Shown here: positions 1,276 through 27,396 of the stretch, in pieces
Layout: the number at the start of each line of letters is the position of its first letter
Position numbering within the stretch: position 1 is the stretch's first letter
From: Pirellulales bacterium
GTDB lineage: Bacteria > Planctomycetota > Planctomycetia > Pirellulales > PALSA-1355
NCBI GenBank assembly: GCA_040877415.1
Contig: JBBDNV010000157.1
Location: 230-64,229, forward strand
Direction of reading: 5' to 3'
DNA: 64,000 nt
Translations under genes and position numbers: made by a program
The notes under the pieces: model-generated
The model's database searches: none
Told to the model about the DNA's origin: nothing
What the model saw: only the letters and a program-made list of their open reading frames with translations

Positions 1276-4200
1276 TCACGGGCTCCCGTATCCGCCGCCG
1301 CCGGGGGTTTCGATGGTCAGCACGTCGCCCGGGCGGGCGCGAAATTGGGCCCGGCCGGGCAAGTGCTCGAGAGTGCCGTCGGTCCTTTGCAGCGTATTGC
1401 GGCCCAGGGCTCCGCTTTCGCCGCCGGCCAGGCCATACGGCGGATAGGGTCCGCGGCGCTCGGAAAGGATCGAGACTTCGAGCGGTTTCAAAAACTCGAG
1501 CCTGCGGATCACTCCGTCGCCGCCGCGCGTGCGGCCATTGCCCCCCGAGCCGCGGCGTATTGAAAACGATCGCACGCGGACCGGATAGCGGCGCTCGAGC
1601 ACTTCGGGGTCGGTGAGCCGGGTGTTGGTCATGTGCGTGTGCACCGCGTCGGCCCCGTCGGCTTGAGGCGTTGCGCCCGCGCCGCCGCAAATCGTCTCGT
1701 AATAGCCGAACGTGGCGTCGCCAAAGAGCAAATTGTTCATCGTTCCCTGGCTGGCCGCCGCCAGCCCCAAAGCGCCCAACAGCACGTCGACCACGCGCTG
1801 CGACGTTTCGACGTTGCCGCCGACCACGGCCGGGCAATCTAGGGCGCGCTCCTGTTCCGTGGGGTTCAAGAGTCCCGGCGGAATGATGATCTCGACCGGC
1901 GCAAGCACGCCCTGATTCAGCGGGATGTCTTCGGCCAGCATCGAGCGCAGCACGTACATCACCGCGGCGGTCGTGATCGCCCGATTGGCGTTCAGGTTGC
2001 CCGCCACGACCCCTCCCGTGCCGGTGAAGTCGACGGTGGCCCGCTCGCCGTCGATGGTAATGGTGACGGAAATTGGCGTGCCGTCGTCGAGATGATCGGT
2101 AAACGGGTACTTGCCGCTGGCGACGCGGGCCAGGGCGCGGCGGACTTTTTGTTCGGCCGCGCGTTGAATGTGTCCCATGTAGGCTTCGACGACGTCGAGC
2201 GAATAGCGCTCCACCAGCCGCACCAGATCACAGGCGCCGCGATGGTTGGCGGCCACTTGGGCCGCGACGTCGGCCAAATTGGCTTCGACGCTGCGCGTGG
2301 GATAGGGCCCGGCGAGCAGAAGCGACCGCAGCTCGGCCCAGCGCTCGTTGCCGCCGTCGATCAGCTTGAAGTTGCGGATGAGCACCCCTTCTTCCGCCAG
2401 GTTCTTGGAAAACGGCGGCATCGAGCCGGGCGTGATGCCTCCCAATTCGGCGTGATGGGCTCGGCTGGCCGTAAAGAACAGCAGCCGGCCAAAGGCGTCG
2501 TGCACCGGGGTGATCACGGTGATGTCGGGCAGGTGCGATCCGCCGCGATAAGGATCGTTGGTCACAAACACGTCGCCCGGGCGCATCGCGGGATTGTCGG
2601 CGATCGTGCGGCGCACGGTCTCGGCCATCGCGCCCAGGTGCACGGGTATGTGCGGGGCATTCACGACCAGGTCGCCCGCGGGCGTAAACAGCGCGCAACT
2701 GAAGTCGAGCCGCTCCTTCACGTTCACGCTGCTGGACGTGTTGCGCAGCGTGATGCCCATCTGCTCGGCGATGGCGGCGAACTGGTTGTTGAAGATTTCC
2801 AGCATGACCGGGTCGGCTTCGGTCGAAACGCTAGCCGGCGGCGGCGGTTCGTCGGACTGCTCGACGAGCAATTCGCCCCCGCTGAGCACCTCGGCCTGCC
2901 AGTGGGGGTCGATGACGGTGGTGGACGCCGTCTCGCACACGATCGCCGGCCCGCGGATGCGATCGCCCGCTTGCAACTGCCCGCGATCGAAGATTCTCGC
3001 TTCGACCATTTGTCCGCCGAAGTAGGTGCGAGCGGTCGCGTCGCTTTTGGCTTCGCGCGGCGCCGCGCGCGTCGAAGGGCTCAATCCGAGAGACGACCGG
3101 CCGCGGGCTTCGACGCGGGCGGCGACAATCTCAAGCGGGCGCTCGTGGTGTACGTAGCCGTACAATTTGCGGTGTTCGGTCCGGAACGCGTCGGCCACGG
3201 CGGGGGCCGTGCATGCCGCGGGGCAGGGGAGCGTGAGCGAGGCTTCGACGCCGAGGTAGCGCAACTCGAGAAATCGGCTGACGGCGATCTGCTCGCGGGC
3301 AATCCCTTCGCCGGCGACGCCTTCGACCGCTTTGCCTTCGAGCCCGGCGAAGACGCCCTGGATGCCCTCCAGCGAATCGCGCGAAAGAAGCTCATAAACG
3401 CCGGCCACCTGATGCCGCTCGACGTCGGCCAGCCCAATGCCGTAGGCGCTCAAAAGTCCCGCGGCGGGATGGTGCAGAATCTGGCGGATCCCGAGCTCGC
3501 GGGCGACGGCGCAGGCATGCTGGCCGGCGGCGCCGCCGAACGGCACGAGCACGTAATCGCGCGGATCGCAGCCTTTGGCCACGGAGATCGAGCCGATGGC
3601 TTTGGCCATGCTGGCATTGGCCACGCGCACGAAGCCTTCGGCCAGTTCGAGCGGATCGTAGGGGTGGCCGCTTTCGATTTTGATCCGGTCGATCCATTCG
3701 GCGAGGCGCGATTCGGCGGCCGCGCGATCGAGTGGAAACGGAAAGCGGTCGGGCGGGATCTTGCCCAACAGGAAATTGACGTCGGTGATCGACAGCGGCC
3801 CGCCGCGGCCGTAGCAGGCCGGTCCCGGATCGGCCCCGGCGCTGTCGGGCCCGACGACAAGCTTGACGCCGTCGAAGCGGCAGATCGATCCGCCGCCGGC
3901 CGCCACCGTTTCGATGGCCATCATCGGCGCCACGACGCGGACGCCCGATTTTTCGGTTTCAAATTCCAATTCAAAGCGGCCGTCGAAGCGCGACACGTCG
4001 GTGCTGGTGCCGCCCATGTCGAAACCGATCGCGCGGCTGAATCCGGCCGCCTGCGCCACGCGCGAAAAACCGACGACCCCGCCGGCCGGGCCCGACAGGA
4101 TGCTGTCCTTGCCGACAAACTGATCGGCATCCACCAGCCCTCCGGCGGAAGTCAGCAGCCGCAGAGAGCTGTCGGGCAAATGGTCGCGCAGGTCGTGCAC

Positions 4201-5079
4201 GTAGCGGCGCAGGATGGGGTTGAGATAGGCGTCCATCACGGTGGTGTCGCCGCGCGAGACGATCTTTACCAAGGGAGCGATGCGGCTCGAGATGCTGATT
4301 TCCTCGAAACCGACGTCGCGCGCCACCTCGGCGACCAGCTCCTCGTGATCGGGCCGCACGAAGGCGTGCAACAAACAGACGGCCAGCGATTCGATGCCCG
4401 ACTTCCTGAGCGATTCCAATTGCGTGCGGACTTGACCGGCGTCCGGGCTGGCCAGCACGCGGCCTTCGAAGTCGACCCGTTCGTCGATTTCCACGACGGC
4501 GGCAAACAGAGGCTTTCGTTTGCGAACGGCCAGCTCGAAAATCCGCGGGCGATTCTGATAGCCGACGTGCAGGATGTCGCCGAAGCCGCGGGTCGTCACC
4601 AGCGCCGTTTTGGCTCCGCGGCGCGTGATCAGGGCGTTGGTGCCGCGCGTCGTTCCCAATCGCACGGCGACGCCGGAGAGCGGCATCGCAAGCGGCATGC
4701 CCAGCAGGTAGCGGATGGCGACCAGCGGCGCTTCGTCGCCGCTTGACAGCTCGTAGCGCTGTCCGGGTTGCGGCTGCCGCGAGAGCGGCTCGACAAGCTC
4801 GATGGTCGCCGTCGAGCGCGAAAAGCGCGCGACGGTCGTCTCAGATTCTGCGTTTCCGTGCTCGTCGAGCAGGCGGAAGCGAAAACCGGTCCAGATCTCG
4901 TCCGGATCGTGTCGCCGGGCAGGGTCGGTGATTTGTTTTCGCGAGGACCCGTGGCCGACGGCCCCCTTGATGACTCCGGAGCTGAGCACCTTGTAGTGCG
5001 CGAGCGTGCCGTCGGGCGCGCGAGCGAAACTGTCGGTGAAAGTTCCGCCGACGTCGATCCAAAATTCCCAACTGGACAT
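1276..5079 (-). CDS. Fused hydantoinase A/B / ATP-dependent 5-oxoprolinase
   Basis: [61 protein letters not shown] and C-terminal ETPGGGGYG motifs; 1267 aa. Confidence 0.93.
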
Positions 5080-22910: not shown

Positions 22911-22940
22911 TTGCGAGGGCCGCTGAGCCGTGTTTATAAT
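22911..22940 (+). promoter_or_regulatory. Candidate sigma70 promoter for metK
   Basis: TTGCGA-N18-TATAAT; AGGAG RBS at ~22998. Confidence 0.5.
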
Positions 22941-23010
22941 GCCGAATTGCCCTCCGGGCGTCGTCCGTCCAGCACGGATTACCTTCCTCCCCGTCATAGG
23001 AGATGGCCAC

Positions 23011-24198
<1,188 letters not shown>

Positions 24199-24262
24199 TA
24201 CGACAGAGACCCTGTGGTGCTACGCGATTCCCTCACCCCTGGCGGGCTTTGCACAAGAACCC

Positions 24263-24460
24263 CTAGATCATAGCTAGTTCTTGTGCAACTGGCGATTCTG
24301 CCCAAAAAGTCGTTTCGATTCCAAGCTCGTAGGATTCCTGGATCAGGCAGCAGATATTGTGGCAGACGATCTTGCAGAGCACTTCGTTGACCATCGCCAC
24401 GTCTGACTTGCGGCGCACGTGGTCACGGAACTTCGCCTTAATCATGGAGAAGGTCGACAT
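24263..24460 (-). pseudogene. DDE transposase remnant (C-terminal 65 aa only)
   Basis: STFSMIKAKFRDHVRRKSDVAMVNEVLCKIVCHN resembles the segment after the catalytic Glu (R-S-x-x-E-S-T-F-x-x-x-K) of IS4/IS5-type transposases. The stop lies 18 bp inside the left TIR. Confidence 0.75.
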
Positions 24461-24519
24461 GTCAATGCCTTGGCGGTAATTTACTTGTAAATAATGTATT
24501 TTCTGGTAATATACCAGCT

Positions 24520-24657
24520 ATGGCCAAGATCATGCTCAAAGTACCCGGTTTTCGTTGCGAGAGATGCGGGCACGAGTGGCAGCCGCGCGCGTCAAAGCGC
24601 CCGACCGTGTGCCCTAAGTGCAAAAATCCGTACTGGGATAAGCCGAAGAAGGTCTAG
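24520..24657 (+). CDS. 45-aa C4 zinc-finger/zinc-ribbon micro-protein (not in the ORF track)
   Basis: Hand translation MAKIMLKVPGFRCERCGHEWQPRASKRPTVCPKCKNPYWDKPKKV*: CxxC...CPxC, basic, ending 6 bp before the RM gene. Confidence 0.75.
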   Translation: MAKIMLKVPGFRCERCGHEWQPRASKRPTVCPKCKNPYWDKPKKV

Positions 24658-24663
24658 CTAGCC

Positions 24664-27282
24664 ATGAGCGAAGAACTTCTCCAGACCATTCCATTCCAGA
24701 TCGGCAAGTACACGTATTACCGACTTGGCAATACAACCCTCGCGCAGCTTAGGAACGCAGGCATCATCCCGAAGAAGAATTACGAGAAGCTAGAGGCTAA
24801 GAAACCAGATGGCTTGATTGTGTACCACGGCAGGATAAAGGCTGTTGTCGAATACAAGCAGCCCAAGGATTTGTCTTCCGAAAGAAAAATCAACAAGGCG
24901 ATTGCCCAGGAATTAGAGGTAGCCAAAGCGCTTTCCAAGATTTTGATCGTCACTGACTCAACTAAGACATTTTGGATCAATGCACTGAATGGCGAGCGAA
25001 TTCAGGACATGGAGGGCAACGACCTAGAAACCGTCTTTCACGCATTCGCCGTTAGGAACCCGACCTTGTTGGAATACCTACTGGATGAAGTCGACGCCTC
25101 GGTCAGCGCAACGAATTCCACCATCCGGCGACCACGGCTCATCGACCCGACACCATTGGCAACTCGCCTATGGCAAACGATTTGGGTTGCGACGGGGAAG
25201 TCACCCGTCAAATGCCTCTACAACGTCGTCGAGTTATTCATCTTCAAGTTCCTGAGCGACTTGCGGGTTTTGCCGGATGACATTGCATTCAATCGGATTC
25301 GAGAGAAGGCAATGGAGGACCCAGAAGAAGCCCTAGACTTTTACGCGAAAAACACCCGGAAGAAAATATACAAGCTCTTTCCGGCGGGTGGAGACGGTAC
25401 GACCATCATCAACGGAACGATCTTTGTTGCAGAGAACGGGGAAGCCAACCTTTCGCAGTCGGTCCTATTCCGTCGGTCACTGGACCATTTGCATAAGTAC
25501 GCCGAAGAATTTGGCGGCCTCACTAAGATTGACAAGCAGTTCAAGACGAAGGTCTACGAGAGCTTTTTGAAGCAGGAAGTCGCGGCATTGGGCCAGTATT
25601 TCACGCCGCGCCGGATCATCCAATCGATTATCCGCATGGCCTCGCTTGACTCGCCTTCCTTTCGGTCTGCGGGCACGCGCATCTGTGACCCGTTTTGTGG
25701 CGTAGGAGGATTCCCACTTGAAATTCTGAACATGAATGAGGGAATGCAATGCTGCTATACCCCAGCGGCGGACAAGACCATATCGGTGCCGTTTGTGATT
25801 CACGGTTTCGACAAAGGCTTTGAGCGCGATGACGAGCGGACCATCATTCTCGCCAAGGCGAACATGCTCATTTATCTCTCGGAGTTGGTCTTTGCGTATC
25901 CCACTTGTTCTGGGGAGTTCTCCCGCGCATTCAACGACACGTTTATTCTTTTTAAGGACAATCTCGGGACCTTCGGGCACATCATCGACCAAGAGCAGGA
26001 GAAGTACGATTTCATCCTGAGCAACCCGCCTTATGTCACAAGCGGCTCTGGCATCATCAAAGAAGAGATCAAGCGGACCCCGCGTACTTCAACCAAATAC
26101 CCCGTGAATGCGCTAGGTTTGGAAGGTCTCTCGATGGAGTGGATCGTCCGATCACTCAAGAAGGGCGGCCGGGCATTTGTCATTGTTCCAGACGGCATAC
26201 TCGGACGGGTGGGTGGTAAAAAACTACGAAGCCATATCCTGCGCGAATGCTACCTCGATGCAATCGTATCTCTGCCTTTGCGTACCTTCTACGCGAATTC
26301 CGAACACACCTACATCATCGCGCTTACAAAGAAGCACAACCCAGATGACGCACAGACGAAACCCGTCTTTACGTATCTGGTTTCCAATATCGGTGAACGG
26401 CTAAAGAGCGTCCACCGGGAGGAAATCGAAGAAGATGACCTCCCTCAAATGGAAAGCCTCTATAAGATCTTCTCGGCAACTGGTGACGCGACGAGGAAGA
26501 TGCTGGAAAGGGAAACCGGCCGCTGTAAGATTCTAGATATTGTGCGATTCCGCGAAGAGCCTCACTGGGTTATAGATCGATGGTGGACGAAGCAAGAACT
26601 GATTGATGCCGGCGTAGAGGAAGGCACCAATGCCGCCGAAAAGCCAGAGGTCGATGCGGCAACTAAAGCGTTCAACGGGGCTGTCGCCGATTACGACCGG
26701 TTCATTTCTGCGAATCCATTGGCCGAGATGCAGCACAGGGCCGTACTCTTGGGAGACGAGTCATGCTTCAAAACATTTATCGGCAAGCGTGTGCTTCTCA
26801 AGGACATTACTGACGACGACAGCAACATTCCGCTATTCAGCGCCAATGCGATTCAGCCGATGGGGTTCGTCGAGAAAGGAAACATTTCTGATTTCAACTA
26901 CCCTGCCATACTATGGGGGATCGACAACAGCCTGTTCAACTACAAATTGATTGCCTCTGGAGAGGAGTTTGCCACGACAGATCATTGCGGGGCGATTCAG
27001 ATACTCGACAAATCGATTATGCCAGAGTATCTGCTCTATGCGTTGTGCCTTCTTCGATCCGAGAAAACTTTTGATCGATCGTTCCGCTCGTCTCTTTCAA
27101 ATATGCGTCTTCTGTCGCTAGAGATTCCCGTAAAGCAGGGCGGTGGGTTTGACGTTCGGGCGCAAAAGTCGATCGCCAAGCGATTCACTGCAATGCAAGA
27201 GAAGCAACAGCAGCTAGGCATCGCCAAAAAGCGGCTTGACGACGTGTTCTCCCGGTACTTAGTGATGGGAAACTGGCATTAA
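24664..27282 (+). CDS. Single-chain type IIG-like restriction-modification enzyme (PD-ExK nuclease + N6-adenine MTase + TRD)
   Basis: N-terminal KPDGLIV...VVEYK. GQYFTPR, ICDPFCGVGGF (motif I) and ILSNPPY (motif IV), i.e. gamma order. C-terminal HsdS-like TRD with a terminal helix. Confidence 0.85.
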   Translation: MSEELLQTIPFQIGKYTYYRLGNTTLAQLRNAGIIPKKNYEKLEAKKPDGLIVYHGRIKAVVEYKQPKDLSSERKINKAIAQELEVAKALSKILIVTDSTKTFWINALNGERIQDMEGNDLETVFHAFAVRNPTLLEYLLDEVDASVSATNSTIRRPRLIDPTPLATRLWQTIWVATGKSPVKCLYNVVELFIFKFLSDLRVLPDDIAFNRIREKAMEDPEEALDFYAKNTRKKIYKLFPAGGDGTTIINGTIFVAENGEANLSQSVLFRRSLDHLHKYAEEFGGLTKIDKQFKTKVYESFLKQEVAALGQYFTPRRIIQSIIRMASLDSPSFRSAGTRICDPFCGVGGFPLEILNMNEGMQCCYTPAADKTISVPFVIHGFDKGFERDDERTIILAKANMLIYLSELVFAYPTCSGEFSRAFNDTFILFKDNLGTFGHIIDQEQEKYDFILSNPPYVTSGSGIIKEEIKRTPRTSTKYPVNALGLEGLSMEWIVRSLKKGGRAFVIVPDGILGRVGGKKLRSHILRECYLDAIVSLPLRTFYANSEHTYIIALTKKHNPDDAQTKPVFTYLVSNIGERLKSVHREEIEEDDLPQMESLYKIFSATGDATRKMLERETGRCKILDIVRFREEPHWVIDRWWTKQELIDAGVEEGTNAAEKPEVDAATKAFNGAVADYDRFISANPLAEMQHRAVLLGDESCFKTFIGKRVLLKDITDDDSNIPLFSANAIQPMGFVEKGNISDFNYPAILWGIDNSLFNYKLIASGEEFATTDHCGAIQILDKSIMPEYLLYALCLLRSEKTFDRSFRSSLSNMRLLSLEIPVKQGGGFDVRAQKSIAKRFTAMQEKQQQLGIAKKRLDDVFSRYLVMGNWH

Positions 27283-27396
27283 GAGTTTTTGTGCAGACTC
27301 ATCCCTTTTTGTGCAGAGGGGCCTTATTGTGCAAAGCCCCCCTGGCGGGAGAGGGTCCCCGTGAGGGGGCAAGGCGCACAGTAAGGTTGAACAGGC

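What the first reader, a model, noticed from the sequence alone, without database searches (positions are those of the whole stretch)
24236..27347. Cargo-carrying IS5/IS903-like transposon delivering a zinc-finger + type IIG restriction-modification module
Seen: perfect 12-bp TIRs (GGCTTTGCACAA), a perfect 9-bp flanking duplication (CCCCTGGCG) and lower GC. Three genes lie inside one pair of IS ends: a transposase remnant on the minus strand, and divergently a 45-aa C4 zinc finger and an 872-aa nuclease-MTase-TRD fusion. Known: IS903-group elements begin GGCTTTG and make 9-bp duplications, but normally encode only the transposase. Inference: this is a 'transporter IS' that mobilises an anti-phage gene. 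It may belong to a family with a fixed transposase / zinc-finger backbone and a variable cargo slot, which would be a route to new defence genes.
Basis: partly seen in the sequence, partly recalled or inferred. Interest (0 to 1): 0.85.

Follow-up and report, generated by a model that had tools for sequence, protein, structure and literature searches.

The report
Cargo-carrying IS5-like transposon with restriction gene
A 3.1-kb mobile element that has lost most of its own transposase gene sits just after metK and carries a small zinc-ribbon gene and a one-protein restriction-modification enzyme; it belongs to a large, unnamed family of insertion sequences that routinely carry variable passenger genes.

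Summary
The insert has perfect 12-bp inverted ends (GGCTTTGCACAA), a perfect 9-bp duplication (CCCCTGGCG) and about 50% GC against about 65% outside.

It holds three things: a 65-aa C-terminal stump of a transposase, a 45-aa zinc ribbon, and an intact 872-aa type IIG-like enzyme (invariant PD..ExK and NPPY motifs).

Removing the insert and one duplicate copy restores a REP-like hairpin repeat that occurs at least 25 times in this genome. In related genera, metK lies directly next to the downstream gene.

Full-length relatives have the same ends and 9-bp duplications. They encode a 414-aa SWIM + DDE transposase that is IS5-like but scores below NCBIfam cut-offs.

All 26 elements I could bound are 2.7-9.3 kb. 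Related elements share only the terminal ~55 bp and the transposase (+ zinc-ribbon) block. The DNA on both sides of that block is unrelated cargo: RM systems, AAA_14/DUF4143 ATPases, SDH proteases and mostly unknown genes. One genome has two 99.8%-identical 3175-bp copies, so cargo moves with the element.

The window copy is non-autonomous, because a clean 1.1-kb deletion removed the DDE residues. No helper transposase is in the assembly.

The zinc ribbon occurs in 13 of 26 elements. It also sits beside three other transposase families.

The parts
24228..24244 (.). Left half of the REP-like target hairpin repeat. It includes the left copy of the target duplication.
   Evidence: Joined to 27348-27372, it gives a 42-nt unit that matches G000 C159:6016-6057 (90%) and C133:60642-60681 (90%) across the junction.
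24236..24244 (.). Left 9-bp target-site duplication, CCCCTGGCG.
   Evidence: Read. It is identical to 27339-27347.
24245..24256 (+). Terminal inverted repeat at the transposase-proximal end, GGCTTTGCACAA.
   Evidence: The same 12-mer ends the full-length elements in L023, L024 and L025.
24249..24288 (.). Terminal TTGCACAAGAAC (24249-24260) and its inverted subterminal copy GTTCTTGTGCAA (24277-24288). I take these to be repeated transposase-binding motifs.
   Evidence: Read. The equivalent subterminal TGCACAAAAA copy in L029 and L025 appears in the alignments. The binding role is inferred.
24263..24460 (-). Transposase remnant, a 65-aa ORF equivalent to about residues 350-414 of the 414-aa enzyme. 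It is a pseudogene.
   Evidence: tblastn gives 59% identity, E 1.8e-21, query residues 337-410. blastn gives 81% to L025 and 71% to L029. The invariant D214, D289 and E349 of the family are all missing.
24457..24461 (.). Junction of a 1112-bp internal deletion, relative to L029 element coordinates 3634-4745.
   Evidence: Two collinear blastn blocks abut here. tblastn extends weakly about 13 codons further, so the junction is good to about +/-40 bp.
24461..24519 (.). Remnant of the divergent transposase/zinc-ribbon intergenic region. I presume it holds the promoter of the zinc-ribbon/RM operon.
   Evidence: It aligns with the region upstream of the zinc ribbon in L029 (67% over 177 bp including the gene). 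The consensus promoter scan found no site here, so the promoter is inferred only.
24520..24657 (+). 45-aa zinc-ribbon protein, the backbone accessory gene.
   Evidence: Weak Zn_ribbon_8 / FmdB hits below cut-off. Thirteen columns are invariant across 10 element-borne homologues, including C13, C16, C31, C34, H18, W20 and W39. 565 relatives were confirmed in metagenome contigs.
24664..27282 (+). 872-aa single-chain restriction-modification enzyme, type IIG-like: N-terminal PD..ExK nuclease, N6-adenine methyltransferase, C-terminal target-recognition domain. This is the cargo.
   Evidence: - Pfam N6_Mtase 3.2e-25 and Eco57I 3.5e-08.
- PADLOC REase_MTase_IIG on residues 698-866.
- Invariant P48 D49 ... 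E63 x K65 and N454 P455 P456 Y457 in 46 homologues.
- AF2 model with pLDDT 82.5.
- Foldseek hits to the type IIG enzyme BpuSI (3s1s, E 1e-15) and to type I M subunits.
27283..27338 (-). Cargo-side terminal 56 bp with three TGCACAA motifs, ending in the inverted repeat.
   Evidence: 75-81% identical to the first 53-56 bp of L025/L024, L029 and L030.
27327..27338 (-). Terminal inverted repeat at the cargo-side end.
27339..27347 (.). Right 9-bp target-site duplication, CCCCTGGCG.
27348..27372 (.). Right half of the REP-like target repeat.
22930..24198 (+). metK (S-adenosylmethionine synthetase), the upstream host gene. It is not part of the element.
   Evidence: Pfam S-AdoMet_synt N, M and C domains.

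Best explanation
Window 24245-27338 is a non-autonomous derivative of a cut-and-paste DDE transposon. The transposon belongs to an unnamed, IS5/IS903-related family.

The family's layout is: [~55-bp end with repeated TGCACAA motifs] - [cargo slot A] - [zinc-ribbon gene, leftward] - [SWIM+DDE transposase, rightward] - [cargo slot B] - [end]. The transposase makes 9-bp staggered cuts.

Here the element inserted into the loop region of a REP-like hairpin repeat 38 bp after the metK stop codon. It brought a horizontally acquired, low-GC operon made of the zinc-ribbon gene and an intact type IIG-like restriction-modification enzyme in slot A.

A 1.1-kb internal deletion then, or beforehand, removed the transposase promoter and about 349 codons, including all three catalytic residues. 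Both ends are still intact, so the element could move only if a related transposase were supplied in trans. None is present in the assembly.

What is shown: the ends, the duplication, the empty site, the deletion, the family architecture, the cargo variability, and recent transposition of a cargo-bearing sister element.

What is inferred: cut-and-paste chemistry, TGCACAA as the binding site, anti-phage activity of the enzyme, and the zinc ribbon as a DNA-binding regulator or accessory of the transposon.
For: 1. Ends and duplication. The ends and the duplication are read directly from the sequence, the 12-mer is rare in the window and genome, and GC drops inside the insert.

2. Empty site.
- Left flank + one duplicate copy + right flank recreates a 42-nt unit. 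It matches C159 and C133 of the same genome at 90% across the junction (E 1.4e-07 and 2.3e-06).
- 25 copies of the 24-nt core occur within 4 mismatches.
- In 10 of 11 loci from related genera, metK and the downstream gene are adjacent.

3. Full-length relatives.
- L023/L029 is 4958 bp and holds a 414-aa transposase with DDE_Tnp_1 (2.3e-19) and a weak SWIM hit. NCBIfam transpos_IS5_2 scores 110 bits, below its cut-off of 140.
- C46, C48, C58, D214, D289, E349, Y342, R345 and K356 are invariant in 27 sequences.

4. Bounded elements. 23 of the 45 genome-contig loci could be bounded by a GCTTTG-type inverted pair. 22 of these have a perfect 9-bp duplication, and L029 has a 10-bp repeat. Lengths run from 2667 to 9283 bp.

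5. Modularity. Related pairs share only the ~55-bp left end, the zinc-ribbon + transposase block (68-92%) and sometimes 60-125 bp of the right end. For example, L041 and L052 have a 92% identical transposase, ends at 100% and 89%, and unrelated cargo. All-vs-all blastp of cargo finds almost no recurrence.

6. Mobility with cargo. Two 3175-bp copies in G008 are 99.8% identical. They sit at different sites with different 9-bp duplications, and each carries the zinc ribbon and an SDH-type protease.

7. Deletion. WIN 2702-2878 aligns with L029 3457-3633, and WIN 2882-3094 aligns with L029 4746-4958.

8. No helper. The only transposase match in the own genome is the remnant.

9. Cargo enzyme.
- Domain hits, conserved motifs, the model and fold matches all fit a type IIG-like enzyme.
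- At least 119 full- or near-full-length homologues at 59-78% identity exist in other lineages.
- Only 1 of 400 other genomes of the same phylum has a match at E<=1e-50, at 32% identity. This fits horizontal acquisition.
Against: - No transposition, restriction or methylation was measured.
- The window copy is single and has no transposase, so its own mobility is historical.
- The transposase family fails the NCBIfam IS5 cut-off, and its nearest named relative is only 25% identical. Placement in the IS5 family, IS903 group, is therefore loose.
- 22 of the 45 genome-contig loci could not be bounded, so 'cargo is the rule' rests on the bounded half.
- Many 'cargo' ORFs come from a greedy longest-ORF call in high-GC DNA, and 22 of the 30 largest have no Pfam hit. 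Some may not be genes.
- The zinc ribbon is absent from 13 of 26 elements, so it is not essential for the family.
- The consensus promoter scan found nothing upstream of the zinc-ribbon gene.
- The assembly is 94.6% complete in 214 contigs, and repeats are often unassembled, so a helper copy could be missing.
Confidence: 0.8

Rival explanations
1. Timing variant A. A complete, autonomous element (transposase + zinc ribbon + RM) inserted here, and the 1.1-kb deletion happened afterwards in place, fixing the RM gene at this locus.
For: - No other copy or helper transposase is in the assembly.
- Autonomous sister elements with the same layout exist.
- Deletions that inactivate a transposase are the common fate of single-copy elements (general knowledge, not tested).
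Against: Nothing in the sequence dates the deletion relative to the insertion. No same-genus genome was available: the 40 relatives searched were all from other genera.
Confidence: 0.55
2. Timing variant B. The element was already deleted and was moved here in trans by a related transposase that has since been lost or is unassembled. It would be a MITE-like element with cargo.
For: - Both ends and all subterminal TGCACAA motifs are intact.
- The duplication is still perfect.
- Genomes of the same family hold several related elements at once. G008 has three, and two different elements sit in tandem in L041/L052.
Against: No second copy of the deleted form and no helper in the 94.6%-complete assembly. 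I did not find a transposase-less twin elsewhere; the 80 metagenome loci held none with the 872-aa family next to the zinc ribbon.
Confidence: 0.25
3. The zinc ribbon belongs to the cargo and not to the transposon. It would be the controller of the RM gene (a C-protein analogue), and its presence beside transposases would be incidental.
For: - In the window it lies 6 nt upstream of the RM gene on the same strand.
- DNA methyltransferases are frequent immediate downstream neighbours in metagenome loci: N6_N4_Mtase 7, N6_Mtase 3 and MmeI_Mtase 2 of 61.
- 21 of 59 loci with enough upstream sequence have no recognised transposase next to it.
Against: - It stays with the transposase while the downstream gene changes. 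Homology between related elements runs through the transposase and zinc ribbon and stops at the zinc-ribbon stop codon, in three transposase families.
- In G008 the gene next to it is a protease on the opposite strand.
- The 872-aa family is beside it in at most 1 of 80 metagenome loci, a weak 23% hit.
- Its nearest sequence neighbour usually has the same transposase class (27 same, 6 different, 11 unclassed).
Confidence: 0.12
4. The RM gene is the invader. A selfish RM unit inserted into, and destroyed, an ordinary insertion sequence, so the element never carried it as cargo.
For: RM genes are known to be mobile (recalled). The transposase is broken.
Against: - The deletion junction (24457-24461) lies on the opposite side of the zinc ribbon from the RM gene.
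- The RM gene occupies exactly the slot, between the zinc-ribbon stop and the 56-bp end, that holds other cargo in intact sister elements.
- No repeats or duplication flank the RM gene itself.
Confidence: 0.04

Closest known systems
IS5 family, IS903 group. The properties of IS903 itself are recalled from ISfinder/TnPedia and were not fetched here.
   Same: - DDE_Tnp_1 catalytic domain with the Y-x2-R-x3-E-x6-K signature.
- Termini beginning GGCTTTG and 9-bp target duplications.
- A 1.05-kb 'IS5 family' element on Vibrio plasmids, the nearest named relative at 25% identity, also starts GGCTTTG at both ends.
   Different: - The transposase has an extra ~95-aa N-terminal SWIM-type CxC...CxH domain.
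- It scores below the NCBIfam IS5 cut-off (110 vs 140 bits).
- Public sources name it only 'transposase'.
- Elements are 2.7-9.3 kb with passenger genes, not about 1 kb with one gene.
- Many also have a separate zinc-ribbon gene.
Transporter IS (tIS), the ISfinder term for insertion sequences with passenger genes.
   Same: IS-type ends and a single DDE transposase, plus genes unrelated to transposition, inside one pair of inverted repeats. The concept is stated in PMC7986276 (passage read).
   Different: In the examples I could read, tIS are scattered single members of families; PMC7986276 cites one IS6 member with one hypothetical gene. Here every bounded member (26 of 26) carries cargo, in two slots, with rapid cargo turnover.
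Type IIG restriction-modification enzymes such as BpuSI (PDB 3s1s), and relatives MmeI and DrdV.
   Same: A single chain of about 870 aa with an N-terminal PD..ExK nuclease motif, an N6-adenine methyltransferase with NPPY, and a C-terminal specificity domain. Foldseek gives BpuSI E 1e-15 and DrdV E 3.5e-12.
   Different: - Only 12% identity to BpuSI in the structural alignment, with low global TM (0.30).
- No MmeI-specific Pfam domains.
- Sequence hits to solved structures cover only the methyltransferase core.
- The recognition site and the cleavage are unknown.
Insertion sequences that target REP / palindromic repeats. IS1397, ISPpu9/10 and similar are recalled; no paper was read.
   Same: The insertion lies inside an extragenic hairpin repeat present in many copies. 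Sister elements in G008, L029 and L030 also sit in short palindromes, with the duplication centred on the loop.
   Different: Most other family members show no palindromic target: the symmetric-pair score is 5 or less of 11 in 19 of 26. The preference is therefore clade-specific or host-dependent.

Membership tests
IS5 family (IS903 group) | DDE_Tnp_1 transposase with catalytic D, D, E and the Y(2)R(3)E(6)K motif. | tested here: met
   Met for the full-length relatives: Pfam DDE_Tnp_1 2.3e-19, and invariant D214, D289, E349, Y342, R345, K356. The window copy keeps only the part after E349, so it has no catalytic residue.
IS5 family (IS903 group) | Reaches the curated NCBIfam score for an IS5-family transposase model. 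| tested here: not met
   The best model, transpos_IS5_2, scores 110 bits against a cut-off of 140. All other IS-family models score far below their cut-offs.
IS5 family (IS903 group) | Ends beginning GGC(TTTG) and a 9-bp target duplication (definition recalled). | tested here: met
   Window. Of the 23 bounded genome contigs elements, 22 have a perfect 9-bp duplication. L024 and L025.
IS5 family (IS903 group) | Simple element of about 1 kb that encodes only the transposase (definition recalled). | tested here: not met
   Bounded elements are 2667-9283 bp around a transposase gene of about 1.25 kb.
Transporter IS (tIS) | Passenger genes inside a single pair of IS ends, moved together with the transposase. 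| tested here: met
   Two 99.8%-identical 3175-bp copies with cargo sit at different sites in G008. The window element has cargo between intact ends flanked by a duplication.
Type IIG restriction-modification enzyme | Nuclease and methyltransferase in one polypeptide, with intact PD-(D/E)xK and NPPY motifs. | tested here: met
   P48, D49, E63, K65 and N454-Y457 are invariant in 46 homologues. Pfam N6_Mtase and Eco57I.
Type IIG restriction-modification enzyme | Own target-recognition domain. | tested here: inconclusive
   The PADLOC REase_MTase_IIG model matches residues 698-866 (3.3e-17). Methylase_S (PF01420) is precomputed on some homologues but was not reported for the query itself.
Type IIG restriction-modification enzyme | Cleaves unmodified DNA and methylates its own site. 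| not testable with these tools
   Needs expression, methylome and restriction assays.
MmeI family (type IIL) | MmeI_N, MmeI_hel, MmeI_Mtase, MmeI_TRD and MmeI_C Pfam domains. | tested here: not met
   None was reported for the 872-aa protein. They were found on other cargo next to zinc ribbons in metagenome loci.
Non-autonomous (MITE-like) derivative | Intact ends and duplication but no functional transposase. | tested here: met
   It differs from classical MITEs in size (3.1 kb) and in coding capacity.

The most novel reading that the evidence does not exclude
A conserved ~45-55-aa zinc-ribbon gene, placed head-to-head with the transposase, marks a class of modular gene-shuttling transposons. 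The class spans at least three or four unrelated DDE transposase families: SWIM-DDE IS5-like, DUF772-DDE, IS1595 and IS1-like. It occurs in soil and sediment bacteria and DPANN archaea.

In each family, homology stops at the zinc-ribbon stop codon, and what follows is a hypervariable slot. The slot is rich in DNA methyltransferases and RM systems, ATPases of defence type, and genes of unknown function.

If so, the zinc ribbon would be a portable accessory, a regulator or DNA-binding factor, exchanged between IS families. Anchoring on it would be a practical way to harvest new defence genes.
Probability: 0.3. Interest if true: 0.82.

Novelty: new variant of a known kind. Interest (0 to 1): 0.66.

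Why it matters
Insertion sequences are usually treated as transposase-only elements. Here a very large environmental family behaves as a two-slot gene shuttle.
- At least 7996 proteins are related to the transposase, and at least 565 zinc-ribbon loci turned up in the scans.
- Cargo turns over faster than the backbone diverges.
- Recognisable cargo is largely defence-like: type IIG and other RM systems, a Dam-type methylase, PDC-S01-type AAA_14/DUF4143 ATPases, a PD-(D/E)xK nuclease and SDH proteases.
- Most cargo has no family assignment.

This gives a concrete, sequence-anchored way to collect candidate defence or addiction genes from metagenomes, using the conserved ends, the transposase and the zinc ribbon.

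For the window itself, it explains how a low-GC restriction enzyme came to sit behind metK, and why it is now fixed there.

Tried and rejected
- Chance repeat: rejected.
- Second copy or helper transposase in the own genome: none found with DNA, pattern or protein queries.
- Exact empty site in relatives: not obtainable, because all 40 relatives searched are from other genera and their intergenic DNA has diverged. Only a synteny-level empty site was obtained.
- Zinc ribbon + 872-aa enzyme as a fixed module: rejected. At most 1 of 80 metagenome zinc-ribbon loci has even a weak match.
- Plasmid collection: no close relative of the transposase. There were 132 records, all under 60% identity and none covering 80%.
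- Protein Atlas on the zinc ribbon: only unnamed small-protein clusters.
- Consensus promoter and terminator scan: fewer sites than the shuffles, and none upstream of the zinc ribbon.
- Complex prediction of the 414-aa transposase with its zinc ribbon: no verdict (score 0.00, controls not run). It counts neither for nor against binding.
- Literature: five searches found the general tIS concept but no paper describing a SWIM+DDE IS5-like family with a zinc-ribbon gene or with systematic cargo. ISfinder, TnPedia and REBASE could not be queried, so prior cataloguing there is not excluded. Supplementary files were not consulted.
- The first boundary script timed out. A second was too strict on where the right end may lie. 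One search replaced both.
- In one search a greedy ORF pick let antisense ORFs mask the transposase; this was corrected.
- A note of mine said 21 of 30 cargo ORFs lacked Pfam hits. The recount is 22 of 30.

Full report
**1. The observation**

The sequence shows CCCCTGGCG at 24236-24244 and again at 27339-27347. Immediately inside these lie GGCTTTGCACAA (24245-24256) and its reverse complement (27327-27338).
- With up to one mismatch, the 12-mer occurs only at these two places in the window. Shuffles give a mean of 0.28 matches.
- In the 5.4-Mb assembly these are the only exact copies. One-mismatch copies are no more frequent than for the backwards control.
- GC is 0.47-0.54 inside and 0.61-0.70 outside.

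**2. The three genes**

*The transposase stump.* The 65-aa minus-strand ORF has no family hit of its own. It aligns with residues 337-410 of a 414-aa transposase from a same-family genome at 59% identity, E 1.8e-21.

*The zinc ribbon.* The 45-aa ORF gives only sub-threshold zinc-ribbon hits: Zn_ribbon_8, FmdB and YgiT-type.

*The 872-aa protein.*
- It has Pfam N6_Mtase and Eco57I.
- A PADLOC type IIG model matches its C-terminal 170 residues.
- It has at least 119 homologues of about 870 aa at 59-78% identity.
- Across 46 of them, P48, D49, E63, K65 (a PD..ExK nuclease motif) and N454-P-P-Y457 are invariant.
- An AlphaFold2 model (pLDDT 82.5, pTM 0.68) finds type I M subunits, the type IIG enzyme BpuSI (E 1e-15), BsaXI and DrdV.
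- Sequence search of solved structures reaches only the methyltransferase core.

I read it as an intact type IIG-like restriction-modification enzyme. Activity is inferred.

The family is rare in the host phylum: 1 of 400 other genomes at E<=1e-50, at 32% identity. This fits horizontal acquisition, as does the low GC.

**3. It is an insertion**

In 10 of 11 loci from related genera, metK is followed within an estimated 0-181 bp by the homologue of the downstream gene. The eleventh contig ends.

I removed the insert and one copy of the 9-mer in silico. This gave a 42-nt unit that matches two other places in the same genome at 90% right across the junction.

The core of that unit is a hairpin, CCCTCTCCC-N5-GGGAGAGGG followed by GGGGTGAGGGG. 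It occurs 25 times within four mismatches. By my own estimate, chance would give about 0.03.

So the target was a REP-like repeat, and the duplication is roughly centred on the hairpin loop.

**4. Full-length relatives**

A search of 40 relatives with the region found DNA matches to the left end, the zinc-ribbon region and the right end in several genomes.

*G020 (L023; the same element is in L029).*
- It is 4958 bp, with identical 12-bp ends.
- It holds a 414-aa transposase: DDE_Tnp_1 2.3e-19, SWIM 0.0027, NCBIfam transpos_IS5_2 110 bits against a cut-off of 140.
- It has a divergent zinc ribbon.
- Its cargo is a 646-aa N6_Mtase protein plus three small ORFs.

*G008.*
- It has two 3175-bp copies, 99.8% identical, at different sites with different 9-bp duplications.
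- Each carries the zinc ribbon and an SDH-type ClpP-like protease.
- This is direct evidence that cargo-bearing elements of this family transpose as units.

*The transposase alignment.* In 27 sequences, the SWIM cysteines (C46, C48, C58; H60 at 90% or more), D214, D289, E349 and the Y-R-E-K signature are invariant.

**5. The window copy is deleted**

blastn against L029 gives two collinear blocks that abut at window 24457-24461. They leave out 1112 bp: 65 bp of promoter region and about 349 codons.

The remnant starts just after the catalytic E. The ends and the subterminal TGCACAA repeats are conserved. No other transposase copy is in the assembly, which is 94.6% complete in 214 contigs.

**6. 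The family**

A genome-contig scan with the transposase gave 45 loci. They come from Planctomycetota, Xanthobacteraceae and other Alphaproteobacteria, Verrucomicrobiales, Acidobacteriota, Dehalococcoidia and several DPANN-type and other archaea.
- 23 could be bounded by a GCTTTG-type inverted pair. 22 of these have a perfect 9-bp duplication. Lengths are 2667-9283 bp.
- 22 loci could not be bounded.
- With the window and the two G008 copies, that makes 26 elements, none near the ~1.4 kb of a simple insertion sequence.

Pairwise blastn shows what related elements share:
- the ~55-bp left end;
- the zinc-ribbon + transposase block, at 68-92%;
- sometimes 60-125 bp of the right end.

Everything else, on both sides of the block, is unrelated. 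Cargo proteins hardly ever recur.

The transposase family is very large: 7996 of the 8000 scored candidates had E<=0.001. Sources name it only 'transposase' or 'SWIM zinc finger'.

In 72,556 plasmids the best match is 25% identical, an 'IS5 family transposase' on Vibrio plasmids. That 1.05-kb element also begins GGCTTTG at both ends.

**7. Cargo content**

*Pfam.* Of the 30 largest cargo ORFs, 22 have no Pfam hit. The rest are:
- AAA_14+DUF4143 ATPases (two);
- a PD-(D/E)xK nuclease;
- a D12 (Dam-type) methylase;
- an N6_Mtase+Eco57I protein of 729 aa;
- an SDH protease;
- a DUF4352 protein;
- a sub-threshold proteasome-like hit.

*PADLOC.* This was run on 70 ORFs, including the window's. Three match N6-methyltransferase models, two match a type IIG model (1.7e-40) and two match the candidate system PDC-S01 (4e-42).

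*Caveat.* ORFs were called by a simple longest-ORF rule, so some may be spurious.

**8. The zinc ribbon**

A local profile finds it in 13 of 26 elements. It is always just upstream of the transposase and divergent from it. Thirteen columns are invariant.

Of the 59 loci with more than 900 bp upstream, the immediate divergent neighbour is:

| Neighbour | Loci |
|---|---|
| SWIM-DDE transposase | 25 |
| DUF772+DDE_Tnp_1 transposase | 7 |
| IS1595-family transposase | 4 |
| IS1-like transposase | 2 |
| Something else or nothing recognised | 21 |

Classes rest on blastp clusters, with one Pfam-scanned representative each.

In the DUF772 and IS1595 groups, homology between loci again runs through the transposase and zinc ribbon and stops at the zinc-ribbon stop codon. 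A zinc ribbon's nearest relative usually sits by the same transposase class (27 same, 6 different, 11 unclassed). Even so, ribbons from different classes can be over 70% identical.

The first sizeable ORF downstream of the zinc ribbon was scanned in 61 loci:

| Pfam family | Loci |
|---|---|
| DUF488 | 9 |
| N6_N4_Mtase | 7 |
| N6_Mtase | 3 |
| MmeI-type | 2 |

Single cases include AAA_21, AAA_15, DprA, peptidase M78, Schlafen/AlbA_2, DUF3800 and a SLOG domain.

The 872-aa family is next to the zinc ribbon in at most 1 of 80 loci. So the ribbon is a backbone gene and not the RM controller. Its function is unknown. I favour a DNA-binding regulator or accessory of transposition (inference).

**9. 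Target choice**

Palindromic targets, with the duplication centred on the loop, are seen for the window, both G008 copies, L029, L030 and, more weakly, L052 and L033. Most other elements show none.

**10. Comparison with what is known**

The concept of insertion sequences with passenger genes (tIS) is established (PMC7986276, passage read). PMC6563490 (passages read) treats archaeal IS-like transposons as 1-2-gene elements.

Five full-text searches found no description of this family. ISfinder, TnPedia and REBASE could not be consulted.

I therefore call it a new variant of a known kind. It is an IS5/IS903-related lineage with an added SWIM domain, an optional zinc-ribbon gene and two cargo slots. 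The window copy is a transposase-deleted member carrying a type IIG-like enzyme.

**11. Verdict**

The main open points are:
- the activity of the enzyme;
- the role of the zinc ribbon;
- when the deletion happened;
- how cargo is exchanged;
- whether curated IS databases already hold members.

Noticed in passing
G000 genome-wide, e.g. C159:6016-6057 and C133:60642-60681; window 24228-24244 + 27348-27372: A REP-like extragenic repeat, CCCTCTCCC-N5-GGGAGAGGG followed by GGGGTGAGGGG, occurs at least 25 times in the own genome (24-nt core, up to 4 mismatches).
   Followed up: partly
L041 5129-13233 and L052 2325-11607 (same contig): Two different family members (8105 and 9283 bp; transposases 92% identical, cargo unrelated) lie head to tail, separated by one 9-mer, CGCCAGGCC. 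That 9-mer also flanks both outer ends, so there are three copies. This could be repeated use of one target or a tandem structure. The right flank of the L058 element also starts with a family end.
   Followed up: partly
L135 4945-13902: An 8958-bp unit with perfect 14-bp family ends and a perfect 9-bp duplication contains two full transposase genes in opposite orientation. It may be a composite or nested element.
   Followed up: no
L107, L110, L141, L142, L096, L097 (DUF772+DDE_Tnp_1); L081, L103, L105, L126 (IS1595 family); L076, L085, L086 (IS1-like): The same small zinc-ribbon gene sits head-to-head with transposases of three other families. In at least the first two groups, homology ends at the zinc-ribbon stop codon.
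   Followed up: partly
L082, L083, L085, L086, L101, L106, L129, L130, L140 and others (downstream of the zinc ribbon): DUF488 proteins are the commonest immediate downstream neighbour of the zinc ribbon (9 of 61 loci). Their role there is unexplained.
   Followed up: no
L032 7492-7884 (-): Here the zinc ribbon is fused to an extra ~80-aa C-terminal domain, giving 131 aa.
   Followed up: no
L091, L124, L137, L139 (45-49 bp after the zinc-ribbon stop): A family-type end (..CAAAGCC) follows the zinc ribbon almost directly, with no recognised transposase upstream. These may be decayed elements or solo ends.
   Followed up: no
G008:C2:1058985-1067615: A third, diverged family element of about 8.6 kb lies in the genome that holds the two identical 3175-bp copies. 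In those two copies, one has a frameshifted transposase and the other a split protease gene. These breaks are possibly assembly indels.
   Followed up: no
L022, intergenic region after metK: One relative has a run of GGAACTC heptamer repeats between metK and the downstream gene.
   Followed up: no
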